From a virus (lineage: Duplodnaviria; Heunggongvirae; Uroviricota; Caudoviricetes), in IMG/VR virus record IMGVR_UViG_3300028962_000002: DNA of 27,476 nucleotides; one strand, 5' to 3'. A program made the position numbers and the translations under genes. This document shows, piece after piece, positions 2,690 to 27,209 of the stretch. Each line of letters starts with the position of its first letter. Position 1 is the first letter of the stretch. The notes beneath the pieces are model-generated. The model was not told where the DNA came from and ran no database searches. It saw only the letters and a list, made by a program, of their open reading frames with translations.

Positions 2690-3085
2690 TCACATCTCGT
2701 ATGTAATGGAATAAGTCAGATCCGCAGAGCTCCATAACGCCATATCGTCATCACGACGATACTCATAGCCCTGCGTAACCATCGTGGTAATCAGTCCTGC
2801 CAGTGCCGGGATCGCAGTCATCGCCGGATAAATCCGGCTTTCCATCCACTGATCAAGCTCTGAATCCGGTACCTGTGCCGGTAAAAACACCTCAATATGC
2901 AGTGTGGCCCGCCAGGTATCTGCATCCAGCTCTTCACCGGTATACTCTGCATCCGTCAGATAAACCGCGATCGCAGGAAAATCCTCTTCGTCAAAAACAA
3001 CGGGGCGACCATCAAACAGCGTCGCCCCGTGTTCATGCTGCTCGAGTGCATCCAGCACTGCAGCACGGATATCAGTGTGTTTCAT
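2690..3085 (-). CDS. U: Tail terminator protein gpU
   Basis: 131 aa; [33 protein letters not shown]...LTYSITYEM matches lambda gpU; its start overlaps the Z stop. Confidence 0.95.
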
Positions 3086-3615
3086 CGTTTTATCGCAATC
3101 CTCAGTTGTTGTTTCAGCGCGGATGCCAGTTCTCCGGGCAGGCGTTCACGCCGGATACGGTCAACATTCTCATCAAACGCCTGTTTCAGTGGGGCCGCCA
3201 TCGGGATTTTCACCACATCAATAGGGTAACGGTTTTTCCCGGCCACACGCTGCATGACATGCCAGCGACCGTTTTTTAATCGCTGAATGAATGCCCGCTG
3301 ATACCGATGCTGACCGGCTTTAAGTATGCTGTTCGGACGACGGCCCAGCATCCTGATCCCCAGCTTAATCACTGGAAGATCACCGCGGTTAACGATAATT
3401 TTTGCGTTCGGATTTCTGACCGTCGCCCGTTTCAGTCTGGACCGTTCCTTAACCAGTTTCCGGCGTACCTTTGTCTCCCGGGCAACCTGTGATGAAGACT
3501 GATTAATCGCCGTTGTGGCCACGCGGTTAATCGTCATTGCTGAAGCCGCCGGAATGGCGTTTTTACGAACCCGGCTCAGATTATCAATCGCCTGATCAAG
3601 CCCTTTTATCGCCAT
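3082..3615 (-). CDS. Z: Tail completion protein gpZ
   Basis: 177 aa; MAIKGLDQAIDNLSRV...FIQRLKNGRWHVMQRVAGKNRYPIDVVKIPMA matches lambda gpZ. Confidence 0.9.
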   Translation of the reverse strand: MAIKGLDQAIDNLSRVRKNAIPAASAMTINRVATTAINQSSSQVARETKVRRKLVKERSRLKRATVRNPNAKIIVNRGDLPVIKLGIRMLGRRPNSILKAGQHRYQRAFIQRLKNGRWHVMQRVAGKNRYPIDVVKIPMAAPLKQAFDENVDRIRRERLPGELASALKQQLRIAIKR

Positions 3616-14619: not shown

Positions 14620-15513
14620 CTAAATACGCACTTTAAGATAAGTCAGCCCCGGATGAAGCCAGTAAGCCGGCCCTTTTTTAAAGGGTGGAGTATTAAAATC
14701 ACGAAGAAGAGCCTCCCGCACAATTGCATCCTTATCAGCACCACTGGCCAGCGCTTCAATCTCAGCGGCTACCTGAAGATATCCCATGCAACGGCCAACG
14801 CGCTTCATCAGCCCCTGCTTTTTATTGTTCTTCAGGTAATCAATGGCAAATTCAATGAGCTCCTCACTGTGCTGGTGCGATGGAGGTGTTACTTTCCCAT
14901 TTTCTGAGATGGTTATTTTCCCAGCATCACCGGATACAACAAAGGATGGCCGGTTACACTCCCATTCCGGGTCACTGAAATTATCATTATGAATACTGAA
15001 ACACTCTGCGAGATTTCTGCTCATCACTTTCCGACAATAATCGTCAAACGCAGCAAACTGCTTTTCATCGCCAGAAGGCACCAATATCGACCATTTCTTA
15101 TTCAGCTCAACGACGTAGCTCTCCAGTTTTTCAATACGTGATTCAACATCATCTTTTTCTGACCGCAGTGTTGACGGCGGCATCTTCAGAGAACAAGTAA
15201 TTCTTCCCGGTAGCTTTCCTTTGTAGGTTATCAACACATCCTGCGCCTCTAAAATTACGGGGCGCTTTTCCGGCAACGGTTCGTTCCATTCACATAACCC
15301 GGCAGCAACATCCATGAAAAACTGCTTCGCCTGCTTTTTCGCCTCAGCTTCGTAAAACTCCAGCGTGGCACCTTCAGTACGGTCAAGACTAATCGCCACA
15401 TCTGGCAACAACAGCGACGCTTGCCCGTCACCTTCCGACTTCACAGTAACAGTAACCTTATCCCCGTAATTATTTATCCCCTTAACAACCAGTTCATATT
15501 TTTTATTCATCAC
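14620..15513 (-). CDS. Hypothetical 297-aa soluble protein inserted between holin and endolysin
   Basis: ATG overlaps the holin stop (coupled); long uninterrupted frame; no transmembrane segment; no motif recognised by eye. Confidence 0.7.
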   Translation of the reverse strand: MMNKKYELVVKGINNYGDKVTVTVKSEGDGQASLLLPDVAISLDRTEGATLEFYEAEAKKQAKQFFMDVAAGLCEWNEPLPEKRPVILEAQDVLITYKGKLPGRITCSLKMPPSTLRSEKDDVESRIEKLESYVVELNKKWSILVPSGDEKQFAAFDDYCRKVMSRNLAECFSIHNDNFSDPEWECNRPSFVVSGDAGKITISENGKVTPPSHQHSEELIEFAIDYLKNNKKQGLMKRVGRCMGYLQVAAEIEALASGADKDAIVREALLRDFNTPPFKKGPAYWLHPGLTYLKVRI

Positions 15514-16486: not shown

Positions 16487-16822
16487 ATGAAGTGGATTGT
16501 GATTGATACAGTTATCCAGCCATCATGCGGAATATCTTTTTCAGTCATATGGAGTAAAATAAAATTAATAATCTGGTATCAATCGGATGCTTTCTTACCT
16601 CCTGAAAGTATATTTACACTGACTCACACAGGTATCATGCTCAATAACAAAGTGCTACCTGTAACCATTTACAACGTAGTACCATTCAATAAAACATTCT
16701 GGAATTTAATCAAAAACAGCCAGGAATGCCCTACAAATACAGATAACGTATTGAATGAATGCTTTAATAACCGTTGCACTCTGCAAATATGTCCTTATGG
16801 GCTAAAACAACAAAGTCCATAA
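16487..16822 (+). CDS. Hypothetical protein in an AT-rich moron island, opposite strand to the late genes
   Basis: AAGGAAA RBS before the ATG; region 16250-16850 is strongly AT-rich compared with the flanking phage DNA; 111 aa, Cys-containing. Not recognised. Confidence 0.5.
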
Positions 16823-16857
16823 GGAGTTTACTCACATCTGACAAAATCAATATAAAC

Positions 16858-16879
16858 AGCCCCTCCGGAGAGGGGCTGG
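16858..16879. terminator. Perfect 9-bp GC-rich hairpin (cagcccctc-cgga-gaggggctg), candidate terminator
   Basis: Stem-loop read directly; on the minus strand it is followed by a T-rich but interrupted tract (TTTATATTGATTTTG). Confidence 0.35.
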
Positions 16880-17178
16880 AGAGTGGCGCTATGTGCCATT
16901 GCATGGTGCCGGGTGCCTCCCGGTGAATTCAGTACCAGCACCTGAATCCGCGATTATCCCATATACCTACTCGCTGATTGCCCCTCCGCACAGGGGGATT
17001 CACCATGCCAGTTTCTTTTAACAAACTCCCCGCAAACCAGACAACAGTCAACCGCCTGAATTGTGAAGTATTTAAAAATTTCTCCCGCTAACTGATACCC
17101 GGCTAACAGTCTGGCGTTTTCTTTTTCAGCAACGGGAAAGCAACAACCACCACACCCACCAGCCGCCCATTTACCACA

Positions 17179-17206
17179 AATAAAAAAGCCTTCAGGACTG
17201 AAGGTG
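17179..17206 (-). terminator. Intrinsic terminator (minus strand) at the end of ORF 17192-17512
   Basis: Hairpin ccttcag-ga-ctgaagg followed on the minus strand by TTTTTTATTT; the ORF stop codon lies inside the stem. Confidence 0.55.
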
Positions 17207-17512
17207 TCTGTAACAACCAAACTGATAGTCTGCCAGACCCGCCATAACAAGCTGGGTCAGTATTAACTGGCAGCGTTCGCGTGAAAGGTAAGTATTCTGT
17301 GCAATCTCCCTGACTGTCGCCGGGTCGGTAACGCTTAATTCATTAAACACCACTCTGGCGGCTTCTGTCATATCCTGCTGTTTTAGCATGTCTTTTTCCC
17401 TTTTCCGGTTAACGTGACATACCAATAACTCTTGTCGAAAAAGCCGGCAAGCTGAAAGACCCGTATTCGCAACCACCAGCGCGTTTACTGTACTGACGCG
17501 ATTTTCGGACAT
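17192..17512 (-). CDS. Hypothetical 106-aa protein, first ORF downstream of the candidate late promoter
   Basis: ATG at 17510-17512 (MSENRVSTVNALVVANTGLS...); no clear RBS, the start abuts the U-tract of the upstream terminator. Not recognised. Confidence 0.45.
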   Translation of the reverse strand: MSENRVSTVNALVVANTGLSACRLFRQELLVCHVNRKREKDMLKQQDMTEAARVVFNELSVTDPATVREIAQNTYLSRERCQLILTQLVMAGLADYQFGCYRHLQS

Positions 17513-17540
17513 AAAAAAAACCACCTGGCGGTGGTTTTTT
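17513..17540. terminator. tR'-like intrinsic terminator just downstream of the Q-like gene (bidirectional A8-hairpin-T6)
   Basis: aaaaaaaaccacctggcggtggtttttt: 7-bp stem aaccacc/ggtggtt, loop tggc, flanked by A8 and T6. Confidence 0.6.
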
Positions 17541-17580
17541 CTTACTTTGCCATCACGTACAAAATCGGCAAAATATCAGA

Positions 17581-17618
17581 TTTATACGAAACATACGCGA
17601 TTTAATTGACTTTTGCAA
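17581..17618 (-). promoter_or_regulatory. Candidate late promoter (pR'-like): -35 TTGCAA, 17-bp spacer, -10 TATGTT, then -10-like TATAAA in the initial transcribed region
   Basis: Minus-strand -35 at 17613-17618 (inside the 3' end of the Q-like gene), -10 at 17590-17595, downstream TATAAA at 17581-17586; about 70 nt before the terminator. Assignment is by analogy with lambda pR'/tR'. Confidence 0.35.
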
Positions 17619-18297
17619 TATCTCGTCGTGAAAAGGTCGCTTTTTGTTGCGCTCTTATTTTCACGGAGCAAATCAAGGATTCTCTATCGAGGCGCTTAAA
17701 AATATCGCACATCTCACGCCAGTAGTTCGCATAATTATGGCTCCAGTTATCAGGCTTAACTCCACACAGTCTGGCAAGCTCCTGTCTCTGGTAGACCTCA
17801 CACCCGGTAACCCATCCTCTGACATCCTGTGCCGCCAGCCAGATCAACTTCTTCACACGCTCCAGCGTTTTCACTGCAATTTTTCTGGAGCCGGACTGAG
17901 TTTTAAATTCACTCCACCCCCACTGCGTTATCGCGATCTGATGCTCCCAGCAAATGTTTCCGCCATAACACCACAACAACCACGCCTTCTGATGTTCTTC
18001 CAGTTCCAGAACAGCACGCCGCCACGATGATGTTGCAAACTCAACAGGACTGACCAGCGCAATTGATGAGCCTTTCGCCAGTGATTGTTTACCCTGGATC
18101 GGGGGATTATCCCGCGTGATCATTTTTCCGGTTACCTCATCGCGGTAACGAATTTTTTTGCGTCTGTAACGCCCTGTATCGAACAGGGCATTTTCCTGCC
18201 AGGCTTCCAGCTGGCATTTTGTCGACCCACTGAGATCTGCAGTGGCAATCATGAGTTGCTCACGAACAAACTGTAAATACTGGTTATTCATGCACAC
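17602..18297 (-). CDS. Putative late-gene antiterminator (Q-like), assigned by position
   Basis: 231-aa ORF directly downstream of rusA and directly upstream of the candidate late promoter, terminator and lysis genes; no sequence family recognised with certainty. Confidence 0.5.
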   Translation of the reverse strand: MCMNNQYLQFVREQLMIATADLSGSTKCQLEAWQENALFDTGRYRRKKIRYRDEVTGKMITRDNPPIQGKQSLAKGSSIALVSPVEFATSSWRRAVLELEEHQKAWLLWCYGGNICWEHQIAITQWGWSEFKTQSGSRKIAVKTLERVKKLIWLAAQDVRGWVTGCEVYQRQELARLCGVKPDNWSHNYANYWREMCDIFKRLDRESLICSVKIRAQQKATFSRRDIAKVN

Positions 18298-20525: not shown

Positions 20526-20681
20526 TTACTCCTCAGGTTCGTAAGCTGTGAAGACAGCGACCTCCGTCTGGCCGGTTCGGATTCGTACCTCGCAGAGGTC
20601 TTTCCTCGTTACCAGTGCCGTCACTATGACGGTTAAACAGATGACGATCAGGGCGATTAACATCGCCTTTTGCTGCTTCAT
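20526..20681 (-). CDS. hokD: Hok-family membrane toxin (type I toxin-antitoxin), HokD-like
   Basis: MKQQKAMLIALIVICLTVIVTALVTRKDLCEVRIRTGQTEVAVFTAYEPEE, 51 aa, canonical Hok sequence. Confidence 0.92.
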   Translation of the reverse strand: MKQQKAMLIALIVICLTVIVTALVTRKDLCEVRIRTGQTEVAVFTAYEPEE

Positions 20682-20738
20682 AGCCTGCTTCTCCTTGCCT
20701 TTCGGCTCGTAAGAGGCTAACCTACATGTGTCTAGCAT
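20526..20738 (-). CDS. Mok-like leader reading frame: in-frame N-terminal extension of hok (70 codons)
   Basis: MLDTCRLASYEPKGKEKQA followed by the Hok sequence, resembling the chromosomal Mok leader pattern (M-L-N-T-C-R...KEKRA-MKQ). Confidence 0.6.
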   Translation of the reverse strand: MLDTCRLASYEPKGKEKQAMKQQKAMLIALIVICLTVIVTALVTRKDLCEVRIRTGQTEVAVFTAYEPEE

Positions 20739-21355
20739 GAAATTGGCCTCAGATTAATGTTAAGCGTCTTGCAGGACGCGTAATGTTAACTGGGGCTTTT
20801 CTCTATCTGCCTTTGGTGTTCATGCCCGAGGCAGATAGCCTCAAGCACCCGCAGCCATTCTACTTAACTACCGTTACCTCGCCAATATGAAATCAGTCAG
20901 AAAGGCGATCCATAAGAACAATAGCAAGACAATAAATCGCCATTACAGCCGTAATAGCCAGCGCACATTTGAGAACCAGCACCACAACCTCCTGTATTGG
21001 ACGTAGACCAGTCCTGATGAATATGAGGCTGTCTCGTCAGTGATTCAATACAACTATTGGGTATAGTTTCTCTGATTTTTTCTGTGGAAATGGGGCACAA
21101 CCACTAGTCACCACCAGCACTTCTTTTAATACGCAAAGTCCGACACAAGCTAACCTTCTAGTCCGCTTTGAGCGAAAAACAGCCATAATTTAGTGCCACG
21201 TATATAATGATAGAGCTATTCAAGCTAGCAATTCACATGTAAAAATTCAGAGGGTAGAAGCACATAGTTATAAATGTTGGCTCCATCGACAAATTGCGGT
21301 CTCAAGTACATTTATTAATGTTGCCCCCGCATTAACAAATCATCAAGGTGACGAC

Positions 21356-27151: not shown

Positions 27152-27209
27152 TTTCTGGTGACGTTTGGCGGTATCAGTTTTACTCCGTGACTGCTCTGCC
27201 GCCGTTTTT
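27152..27209 (+). ncRNA. dicF: DicF small RNA (53-nt core plus U-tail)
   Basis: tttctggtgacgtttggcggtatcagttttactccgtgactgctctgccgcc followed by gttttt, matching the E. coli DicF sequence as recalled; ends in a hairpin plus U-run. Confidence 0.88.

What the first reader, a model, noticed from the sequence alone, without database searches (positions are those of the whole stretch)
17513..17625. Compact late-control region: candidate pR' with a -10-like pause element and a terminator abutting the next start codon
On the minus strand, a -35 TTGCAA (17 bp) -10 TATGTT promoter overlaps the 3' end of the Q-like gene, followed by a -10-like TATAAA in the initial transcribed region (as for the sigma70-dependent pause used by lambda Q), then an A8-hairpin-T6 terminator about 70 nt downstream whose U-tract runs directly into the ATG of the next ORF. 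This would give a short terminated leader RNA unless Q modifies RNA polymerase.
Basis: inference. Interest (0 to 1): 0.45.

Follow-up and report, generated by a model that had tools for sequence, protein, structure and literature searches.

The report
Phage-82-type late-gene antitermination switch
This is the ordinary late-gene switch of a phage-82-like prophage in E. coli: a promoter, a built-in pause site and a terminator placed right after the Q antiterminator gene.

Summary
All the listed elements are in the sequence, on the minus strand. They are -35 TTGCAA (17618-17613), a 17-bp spacer, -10 TATGTT (17595-17590), TATAAA (17586-17581), an A6-CCACC-GCCA-GGTGG-T8 terminator (17540-17513) and ATG (17512-17510).

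The upstream gene (17602-18291) belongs to the Q82 family (PF06323) and is 66% identical to phage 82 Q. I collected 204 loci using Q protein similarity alone, which gave 111 distinct sequences. Anchored on the Q stop codon:
- 101/111 keep TTGCAA.
- 101/111 keep a TAnnnT -10.
- 101/111 keep TGnTAnnnT at +6..+14.
- 101/111 have T at +25.
- 102/111 have a terminator-like hairpin plus U-tract, with the U-tract starting at a median of +70.

- **Pause element.** It is TGATATTTT (17578-17570) followed by GCC at +15-17, as published for phage 82 pR'. It is not TATAAA, which straddles the start site and is kept in only 21/111 relatives.
- **ATG next to the U-tract.** It is not a conserved start codon. 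The 123 nt after it show no codon-position bias and carry frameshifts. The real gene is the 65-codon ORF 17389-17192.

Verdict: a correctly spotted, textbook Q-pR'-pause-tR' module. It is a new member of a known kind and of low interest.

The parts
17602..18291 (-). Q antiterminator gene (229 aa from ATG 18291; stop TAA 17604-17602), Q82 family
   Evidence: Pfam PF06323, E=2.2e-82. 66% identical to phage 82 Q X92588. RefSeq names it 'bacteriophage antitermination protein Q', WP_001064909.1.
17613..17618 (-). -35 hexamer TTGCAA of the late promoter pR' (positions -35..-30), inside the last Q codons
   Evidence: Read. TTGCAA sits at this offset from the Q stop in 101/111 distinct relatives, and TTGC in 108/111.
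17596..17612 (-). 17-bp spacer AAGTCAATTAAATCGCG, containing the Q stop codon; candidate Q-binding element (inferred)
   Evidence: For phage 82 the QBE lies within -31..+30, between the -35 and -10 elements (PMC4914094). The window spacer differs at 6 of 17 positions from loci whose Q is 100% identical to phage 82 Q. Binding was not tested.
17590..17595 (-). -10 hexamer TATGTT (-12..-7)
   Evidence: Read. TAnnnT is at this position in 101/111 relatives, as TATATT, TACATT, TATGTT or TACGTT.
17581..17583 (-). Predicted start site: A17583 (+1), first base of an AAA run
   Evidence: It lies 7 nt after the -10. Setting GCC to +15-17 and U to +25, as published for 82 pR', places +1 here. AAAT at +1..+4 in 95/111 relatives. 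Inferred, not mapped.
17581..17586 (-).
   Evidence: Kept in only 21/111 relatives; TGTAAA in 54 and TGCAAA in 13.
17570..17578 (-). Sigma70-dependent pause element TGATATTTT: extended -10 TG at +6/+7 and -10-like TATTTT at +9..+14
   Evidence: TGnTAnnnT at this position in 101/111 relatives. It matches the published 82 pR' description: an extended -10 and a -10-like element beginning at +9 (PMC5001585).
17558..17569 (-). GCC (+15..+17, 17569-17567), AT-rich GATTTTGT (+18..+25) and the predicted pause site U+25/A+26 (17559/17558)
   Evidence: PMC5001585 reports GCC at +15-17, an AT-rich +18..+25, G at +24 and U at +25. All are present here. T at +25 in 101/111 and GCC in 76/111 relatives.
17513..17540 (-). 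Intrinsic terminator tR': A6 (17540-17535), stem CCACC (17534-17530), loop GCCA, stem GGTGG (17525-17521), U8 (17520-17513). Symmetric, so also terminator-like on the + strand.
   Evidence: Found by the scanner on both strands. Hairpin -8.1 kcal/mol. At least six different hairpin sequences occupy the same place in relatives, with 3' ends at +69..+80. Terminator-like in 102/111 relatives.
17513..17583 (-). Predicted terminated leader RNA of about 70 nt
   Evidence: Fold -26.3 kcal/mol, z = -5.06. No Rfam family reaches its threshold. Existence of the RNA is inferred.
17390..17512 (-). ATG (17512-17510) abutting the U-tract, plus 120 nt that are open in this window but not conserved as coding
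   Evidence: Variable sites by codon position are 22/17/21, with 3 frame-shifting gaps. The ORF from this ATG is 2, 8, 10, 25, 42, 45, 56 or 106 codons in relatives and stops after 8 codons in L002 and L003.
17192..17389 (-). First conserved gene after tR': a 65-aa ORF (MLKQQDM...), a small HTH-like protein of unknown function
   Evidence: Variable sites by codon position are 5/6/33. RefSeq CDS WP_001309418.1. phrog_331 E=5e-36. Weak TrmB HTH hit, E=0.003, below the cut-off. AAGGGA lies 8-9 nt upstream of the ATG.

Best explanation
This is the late-gene control region (Q-utilisation site) of a phage-82-type lambdoid prophage of E. coli.

**Without Q.**
- Sigma70 RNA polymerase starts at pR' (-35 TTGCAA, -10 TATGTT, +1 about A17583).
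- Sigma70, still bound to the enzyme, re-binds the non-template TGATATTTT at +6..+14.
- The enzyme scrunches on to the GCC/AT-rich elemental pause and stops at +25/+26 (17559/17558).
- It then escapes and terminates at the hairpin plus U8 (17534-17513), releasing a leader RNA of about 70 nt.

**With Q.**
- The 229-aa Q82-family protein encoded just upstream binds DNA in the promoter spacer.
- It engages the paused complex, helped by NusA, and stays with the polymerase.
- The polymerase then reads through tR' and the later terminators into the 65-aa ORF, the lysis genes and the packaging and head genes on the same strand.

**Shown here:** the sequence elements, their family-wide conservation at fixed positions, the Q family assignment and the downstream gene order.

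**Inferred from phage 82 biochemistry:** initiation, pausing, Q binding and read-through.
For: - The Q gene is PF06323, E=2e-82, and 66% identical to phage 82 Q.
- Elements were read at the stated coordinates.
- 204 loci were collected by Q protein similarity only (50-100% identity). They come from E. coli, Shigella, Citrobacter, Enterobacter, Kluyvera, Klebsiella, Raoultella, Leclercia, Franconibacter, Siccibacter and viral contigs.
- Anchored only on the Q stop codon, the 111 distinct sequences show: TTGCAA 101, -10 TAnnnT 101, TGnTAnnnT at +6..+14 101, T at +25 101, terminator-like 102 with the U-tract starting at a median of +70.
- The terminator stem is replaced by at least six unrelated hairpin sequences at the same place. 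This argues for selection on the structure rather than on the sequence.
- The window's +1..+26 meets each published feature of 82 pR': extended -10, -10-like element from +9, GCC +15-17, AT-rich +18-25, G+24, U+25 (PMC5001585).
- Loci whose Q is 100% identical to phage 82 Q have the same design, with AAATCTGATATTTTGCC identical.
- The composite motif occurs once in the window and in 0/100 shuffles.
- Leader fold z = -5.06.
- Holin, endolysin, small and large terminase, portal and major head genes lie downstream on the same strand.
Against: - There are no transcript data. Initiation, pausing, termination and Q action are all inferred.
- The promoter matches the consensus only at 8/12. Such matches are common in the window, 90 sites.
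- The terminator stem proper is only 5 bp (-8.1 kcal/mol).
- The spacer that should hold the Q-binding element differs at 6/17 positions from the phage-82-type spacer. I could not obtain the experimentally defined 82 QBE sequence.
- The relatives are not phylogenetically independent, so the counts overstate the number of independent observations.
- RefSeq marks some nearby late-region genes as partial: DUF1737 and YdfR. The prophage may therefore be decaying.
Confidence: 0.85

Rival explanations
1. The module is a Q-regulated pR', but the sigma70-dependent pause is induced by TATAAA at 17586-17581, as with the start-proximal element of lambda pR'.
For: TATAAA is a 5/6 match to TATAAT and lies next to the start site. 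In lambda the pause element is start-proximal, +1..+6 (PMC5001585).
Against: With +1 at 17583, TATAAA spans -3..+3. Part of it is never transcribed and it overlaps the open promoter complex. Only 21/111 relatives keep it, while TGTAAA and TGCAAA dominate. TGnTAnnnT at +6..+14 is kept in 101/111. The published 82 element starts at +9 with an extended -10.
Confidence: 0.04
2. The hairpin is simply the 3' end of the Q (early) transcript, and a two-way stop against convergent plus-strand transcription such as that from the iraM-like gene. On this reading the promoter-like hexamers are incidental and there is no regulated leader.
For: The terminator is symmetric (A6/T8) and is called on both strands. 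A convergent + strand gene lies at 16487-16822. The promoter matches only 8/12.
Against: The -35, the -10, the AAAT start and the extended -10-like element are conserved at fixed offsets in about 90% of distinct relatives, while flanking non-coding positions vary. The terminator keeps its distance from the pause element even when its sequence is replaced. Ending the Q mRNA and ending the leader are not mutually exclusive.
Confidence: 0.06
3. The module is intact in sequence but is a fossil. The prophage is defective, and Q or pR' no longer drives anything useful in this host.
For: RefSeq marks partial genes in the late region: DUF1737 and YdfR. The prophage carries Qin-type cryptic-prophage genes: hokD/sok, rem, ydfU and DicF.
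Against: The Q ORF is intact. The 901-nt segment is 100% identical in many complete genomes and covered at 80% or more in 143. Holin, endolysin, terminase, portal and head ORFs are open. The leader region is identical to that of many relatives.
Confidence: 0.2
4. Besides its cis role, the constitutively made, terminated leader of about 70 nt is a trans-acting small RNA, as shown for StxS from Stx-phage PR'-tR'.
For: PR' is constitutive in lysogens and its terminated product is a functional Hfq-binding sRNA in Stx phages. Short terminated late RNAs are reported for phages 21, phi80, 82 and P22 (PMC7547250). The leader is predicted to be strongly structured, with an A-rich linker and a U8 tail.
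Against: No Rfam sRNA family matches at threshold. The 5' hairpin has no covariation support. The leader body between the pause site and the terminator is replaced wholesale among relatives, which does not suggest a conserved seed. No expression or Hfq data are available.
Confidence: 0.12

Closest known systems
Phage 82 late control region (gene Q, pR', +25 sigma70-dependent pause, terminator)
   Same: - Same Q family (PF06323, 66% identity).
- The -35 TTGCAA overlaps the Q stop region, with a 17-bp spacer.
- AAAT start.
- TGATATTTTGCC at +6..+17 is identical to loci carrying a 100% phage 82 Q.
- G+24/U+25.
- An intrinsic terminator lies within about 80 nt.
   Different: - Q differs in a third of its residues, mostly in the C-terminal third.
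- The spacer, the presumed QBE, differs at 6/17 positions.
- The -10 is TATGTT rather than TATATT.
- +18..+23 is GATTTT rather than AATGTT.
- The terminator hairpin is unrelated in sequence and ends at about +71 rather than about +80.
Lambda pR' - 6S RNA - tR' with Q-lambda
   Same: Same logic and gene position: a constitutive late promoter after Q, a sigma70-dependent promoter-proximal pause, Q loading at the pause, and a terminated short RNA in the absence of Q.
   Different: - The Q family is unrelated (PF03589, not matched here).
- The lambda pause element is at +1..+6 with the pause at +16/17 and GGG at +7-9.
- The lambda leader is 194 nt, against about 70 nt here.
Phage 21 / Q21-type late regions, including Stx2 phages with q21-type Q
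   Same: Same logic. The terminator plus 65-aa ORF module from window 17538 downward is homologous (89-94% identical) to the module that follows a 127-aa Q in Stx2 phages and PhiR5_1.
   Different: The Q protein and the promoter/pause segment are unrelated. Homology begins only at the terminator.
StxS (sRNA made by termination of the Stx-phage PR' transcript)
   Same: It is a by-product RNA of an antitermination-controlled late promoter that ends at tR' (PMC7547250).
   Different: StxS comes from a 258-nt PR'-tR' interval and is processed by RNase E to 74 nt. No sequence relation was found, and no function has been shown for the leader here.
Phage 434 record OL657226 (Q82-like Q, annotated terminator)
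   Same: It has a Q82-family Q (63% identity), TTGCAA overlapping the stop region, and a terminator annotated 49-74 nt after the stop followed by ATG.
   Different: Its pause element is TGGTATGTT without GCC, and its leader is only about 54 nt.

Membership tests
Q82-type late control region (Q gene + pR' + sigma-dependent pause element + tR') | The gene immediately upstream encodes a Q82-family antiterminator (Pfam PF06323) | tested here: met
   PF06323 E=2.2e-82, covering 217/220 of the profile. 66% identity to phage 82 Q.
Q82-type late control region (Q gene + pR' + sigma-dependent pause element + tR') | A sigma70-type promoter overlaps or follows the 3' end of Q | tested here: met
   The sequence criterion only is met: TTGCAA-17-TATGTT. 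It is conserved at a fixed offset from the stop codon in 101/111 relatives. Promoter activity is not testable here.
Q82-type late control region (Q gene + pR' + sigma-dependent pause element + tR') | A -10-like element with extended -10 at about +6..+14, GCC at +15-17, an AT-rich +18-25 and U at +25 | tested here: met
   TGATATTTT GCC GATTTTGT at 17578-17559, compared with the description in PMC5001585. Present in 101/111 relatives.
Q82-type late control region (Q gene + pR' + sigma-dependent pause element + tR') | A Q-binding element between -35 and -10 that this Q recognises | not testable with these tools
   The region exists at 17612-17596. The spacer differs at 6/17 positions from the phage-82-type spacer.
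Q82-type late control region (Q gene + pR' + sigma-dependent pause element + tR') | An intrinsic terminator between the pause site and the late genes | tested here: met
   Hairpin plus U8 at 17534-17513. Terminator-like in 102/111 relatives.
Q82-type late control region (Q gene + pR' + sigma-dependent pause element + tR') | Co-directional late genes (lysis, packaging, head) downstream | tested here: met
   Holin, endolysin, small and large terminase, portal and major head genes are on the minus strand at 15730-4403.
Q82-type late control region (Q gene + pR' + sigma-dependent pause element + tR') | A sigma70-dependent pause at +25/26 and Q-dependent terminator read-through | not testable with these tools
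   This needs in vitro transcription or transcript mapping.
Lambda-type pR' (Q-lambda family) | Q of Pfam PF03589, with the pause element at +1..+6 and the pause at +16/17 | tested here: not met
   Only PF06323 is matched. The conserved -10-like element is at +9..+14.
Q21-type pR' | Q of Pfam PF06530 | tested here: not met
   Only PF06323 is matched. Q21-type loci L002 and L003 share only the terminator and what lies downstream.
Described sRNA or leader families (Rfam 15) | A match at the family's gathering score over 17513-17583 | tested here: not met
   There is no gathering-level hit. The best sub-threshold hits are Phe_leader 28 bits vs 55, isrK 19 vs 50 and, on the + strand, STnc370 36 vs 54. 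All are driven by the A/U-flanked terminator.

The most novel reading that the evidence does not exclude
The roughly 70-nt pR' leader is made constitutively from this widespread E. coli prophage. On this reading it acts in trans as a regulatory small RNA, in the manner of StxS. A second, separate possibility is that this Q allele and its divergent spacer form a distinct DNA-binding specificity class within the Q82 family, which is still structurally unsolved.
Probability: 0.12. Interest if true: 0.5.

Novelty: new member of a known kind. Interest (0 to 1): 0.2.

Why it matters
The finding matters little on its own. It is a textbook Q-dependent late switch, and its identification mainly improves annotation, since RefSeq annotates only CDSs here.

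It has modest value in three respects:
- **Natural variation for the Q82 family.** The comparison gives a family-wide consensus for Q82-type sites: TTGCAAAA, the spacer, TAnnTT, N6, then AAATCTGATATnnT(GCC). This is the one Q family with no solved structure and an open mechanistic question about whether it works as a nozzle (PMC9388147).
- **Modular exchange.** The promoter/pause segment travels with its Q type, while the terminator and the module downstream of it are exchanged between Q82-type and Q21-type phages, including Stx2 phages.
- **A candidate sRNA.** The short constitutive leader can be tested for StxS-like function.

Tried and rejected
- **TATAAA as the pause element:** rejected on position (-3..+3) and conservation (21/111).
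- **ATG 17512 as the start of a 106-aa protein:** rejected. There is no codon-position bias (22/17/21 against 5/6/33 in the distal 65 codons), there are frameshifts, and the ORF length varies from 2 to 106 codons. PHROG 331 does include long gene calls.
- **A conserved RNA hairpin at +9..+41:** it is predicted in the window and in many relatives. RNAalifold gave no consensus. My explicit pair count showed less covariation than every one of 500 shuffles. Not supported.
- **Rfam:** no family covers the leader.
- **PDB sequence search with Q:** no relative with a solved structure.
- **Printed phage 82 pR' sequence:** literature string searches found nothing. The supplement with the template sequences is not held and PMC3058920 is not held. 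Identity with 82 pR' therefore rests on the verbal descriptions and on loci whose Q is 100% identical to phage 82 Q.
- **K-12 Qin prophage:** it has a different, 250-aa Q (ydfT) followed by cspF/cspB. It was not informative.
- **STnc100 as the true late leader:** considered because it lies downstream of Q and ends in a strong terminator. It is 480 nt beyond tR' and is a separately described prophage sRNA. The conserved promoter/pause signature sits directly after Q.

Full report
**1. What is in the sequence**

The genes in this part of the window run on the minus strand. Read 5'->3' on that strand, the Q-like ORF ends ...GAT ATT GCA AAA GTC AAT TAA, with the stop at 17604-17602. The elements are:
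- TTGCAA at 17618-17613.
- A 17-bp spacer, AAGTCAATTAAATCGCG (17612-17596).
- TATGTT at 17595-17590.
- TCGTAT, then AAATCTGATATTTTGCCGATTTTGTAC starting at 17583.
- Further on, AAAAAA-CCACC-GCCA-GGTGG-TTTTTTTT (17540-17513).
- ATG at 17512-17510.

There are two slips. On this strand the terminator is A6-hairpin-T8 (A8/T6 is the plus-strand reading).

**2. Is it more than chance?**

The promoter alone is not:
- It matches the consensus at 8/12 and fell below the scanner's threshold.
- 90 sites of that quality occur in the window.

Other measures are stronger:
- Hairpins followed by at least 7 T are rare, with three places on the minus strand in 27 kb.
- The scanner calls this hairpin on both strands.
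- The composite TTGCAA-N17-TAnnnT-N11-TGnTAnnnT occurs once in the window and in none of 100 shuffles.
- The 71-nt predicted leader folds at -26.3 kcal/mol, z = -5.06.

**3. Context**

- The upstream ORF (17602-18291, 229 aa) matches Pfam PF06323 over its full length, E=2e-82.
- It is 66% identical to the phage 82 Q protein of record X92588.
- PF06323 is the Q82 family, one of three unrelated Q families (PMC9388147).
- No relative has a solved structure by sequence search.
- Upstream lie RusA, a DUF968/YdfU protein, rem and hokD/sok. Downstream on the same strand lie holin, endolysin, small and large terminase, portal and major head genes.
- The 901-nt segment around the finding is 100% identical in many complete E. 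coli genomes and covered at 80% or more in 143 of 5,426. RefSeq annotates only CDSs there.

**4. Comparative test**

I collected loci by similarity to the Q protein only, so the downstream DNA played no part in selection. There were three sets:
- 80 viral contigs with the window's Q as query.
- 43 species-representative genomes from many enterobacterial genera.
- 80 viral contigs with phage 82 Q as query.

Anchoring on nothing but the Q stop codon, 204 loci gave 111 distinct 170-nt segments, with Q 50-100% identical to the window's.

| Feature | Distinct relatives (of 111) |
|---|---|
| TTGCAA at -35..-30 | 101 (TTGC in 108) |
| TAnnnT at -12..-7 | 101 |
| AAAT at +1..+4 | 95 |
| TGnTAnnnT at +6..+14 | 101 |
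| GCC at +15..+17 | 76 |
| T at +25 | 101 |
| Terminator-like hairpin plus U-tract between +39 and +115 | 102 (U-tract starts at a median of +70) |

- Non-coding positions between these elements vary freely.
- The terminator stem is replaced by at least six unrelated sequences at the same place. Examples are CCACC/GGTGG, CTGCC/GGCGG, CCCGC/GCGGG, ACCCGC/GCGGGT, CCTGTC/GGCAGG and GCCCGAGG/CCTTGGGC. This indicates selection for a terminator as such.
- Caveat: the relatives share ancestry, so these counts are not independent events.

**5. Correcting the pause element**

The published description of phage 82 pR' (PMC5001585) gives these features:
- A -10-like element that includes an extended -10 and begins at +9.
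- GCC at +15-17.
- An AT-rich +18..+25.
- A G that lands at the pause end when one base is inserted at +18, meaning G at +24.
- U at +25, with pausing at +25/+26.

With +1 at A17583 the window reads A1 A2 A3 T4 C5 T6 G7 A8 T9 A10 T11 T12 T13 T14 G15 C16 C17 G18 A19 T20 T21 T22 T23 G24 T25 A26. All of these features are met.

Loci whose Q is 100% identical to phage 82 Q read AAATCTGATATTTTGCCAATGTTGTAC, which is identical through +17. An AAA start also fits the cited report of slippage at the 82 late promoter (reference list; this link is my inference).

TATAAA, by contrast, is TGTAAA in 54 and TGCAAA in 13 of the 111 relatives. The pause element is therefore TGATATTTT (17578-17570), and the predicted pause site is 17559/17558.

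**6. The ATG next to the U-tract**

- In the window an ORF is open from ATG 17512 to 17192 (106 codons). In close relatives the ORF from the equivalent ATG is 2, 8, 10, 25, 42, 45, 56 or 106 codons.
- In Q21-type loci that share this module it stops after 8 codons, because of a 1-nt length difference.
- Among 25 distinct homologous segments, variable sites in the first 123 nt fall 22/17/21 by codon position, with three frame-shifting gaps. In the last 198 nt they fall 5/6/33 with none.
- The real gene is therefore the 65-codon ORF 17389-17192. It is preceded by AAGGGA and is the one RefSeq annotates. The abutting ATG is not a conserved start.

**7. Mosaic structure**

Homology to Stx2 phages and to PhiR5_1 begins at window 17538, which is at the terminator. 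In those phages the module follows a 127-aa Q annotated as a Q antiterminator, with its own unrelated promoter segment. The promoter/pause segment therefore travels with its Q type, as expected if it holds the Q-binding site. The terminator and the downstream module are exchangeable.

**8. Mechanism**

This rests on established phage 82 and lambda biochemistry (PMC4914094; PMC5001585; PMC9388147):
- pR' is constitutive.
- Without Q the transcript ends at tR', at about +70.
- Q bound in the promoter spacer loads onto the paused complex, helped by NusA, and makes it terminator-resistant.

Every functional step is inferred for this locus. The spacer differs at 6/17 positions from the phage-82-type spacer, and the Q C-terminal third is a different allele. 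Cross-specificity with phage 82 Q is therefore unknown.

**9. Things that did not hold up**

- A leader hairpin at +9..+41 is predicted but has no covariation support.
- No Rfam family covers the leader.
- I could not retrieve a printed 82 pR' sequence.

**10. Verdict**

This is a correct recognition of a textbook module, with two wrong details. It is a new member of a known kind, and interest is low (0.2). The only less ordinary possibility is that the constitutive leader of about 70 nt has a trans function like StxS (PMC7547250). Nothing here supports that beyond analogy.

Noticed in passing
window 16848-17037 (-): There is a full-length match to the prophage sRNA family STnc100 (RF02076, 132 bits). 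It ends in a strong 9-bp hairpin at 16878-16857 and lies about 480 nt downstream of tR', inside the presumed late transcript. Q-modified polymerase would have to read through it.
   Followed up: partly
window 16487-16822 (+): An iraM-like anti-adaptor gene (RefSeq name) sits on the opposite strand, convergent with the late operon. It lies between tR' and the lysis genes and looks like a moron. The next plus-strand terminator-like site that the scan reports after the gene is the same A/T-flanked hairpin at 17515-17540, so tR' may stop transcription in both directions.
   Followed up: partly
window 17471-17546 (+): There is a sub-threshold, full-length match to STnc370 (35.9 bits against a gathering score of 54), antisense to the region just after tR' and ending at the shared hairpin. 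It is mostly explained by the terminator itself.
   Followed up: partly
window 17543-17575 (-): An inverted repeat (TATTTTGCC...GGCAAAGTA) gives a predicted 12-bp RNA hairpin whose 5' arm is the pause element. Similar hairpins are predicted in many relatives, but covariation is below every shuffle, so it may be incidental.
   Followed up: yes
window 17152-17538 (-); L002 and L003 at about 3000-3385: The terminator plus 65-aa ORF module is 89-94% identical to the module that follows a 127-aa Q of a different type in many Stx2-converting phages, phiP27 and PhiR5_1. The mosaic joint is at the terminator.
   Followed up: yes
window 17602-17830 (-) and relatives (L004, L005, L073, L083, L086): Q82-family proteins come with at least two very different C-terminal thirds (...VKPDNWSHNYANYW... 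against ...VTSKNWSETFTERW...). In the seven sequences compared, these track with different promoter-spacer sequences. The cause may be co-evolution of Q and its binding site or plain linkage.
   Followed up: partly
L004 2166-2179 (phage 434 record); window 17613-17626: The 434 annotators mark a CII site (TTGC-N6-TTGC) and a paQ -35 on the opposite strand, using the same palindromic TTGCAA. In the window the second half-site is degenerate (TTGCAATATCTCGT).
   Followed up: no
window 20676-20850 (-) and 27153-27204 (+): There is a sok antitoxin RNA next to hokD, and a DicF sRNA. Together with rem and ydfU these mark the element as Qin-like, although its Q differs from the 250-aa ydfT of K-12 Qin.
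   Followed up: partly
window 14620-15513 (-): A 297-aa ORF of unknown function (phrog_1085) lies between the holin and the endolysin. RefSeq calls a partial YdfR-family gene at that place.
   Followed up: no
L141, L166, L187 (+30 onward); L075, L080: Three phage-82-like loci keep the promoter and pause element, but the leader after about +27 is replaced and no terminator is seen within 115 nt. Two other loci have lost the usual Q stop codon, so the ORF runs on through the promoter.
   Followed up: no
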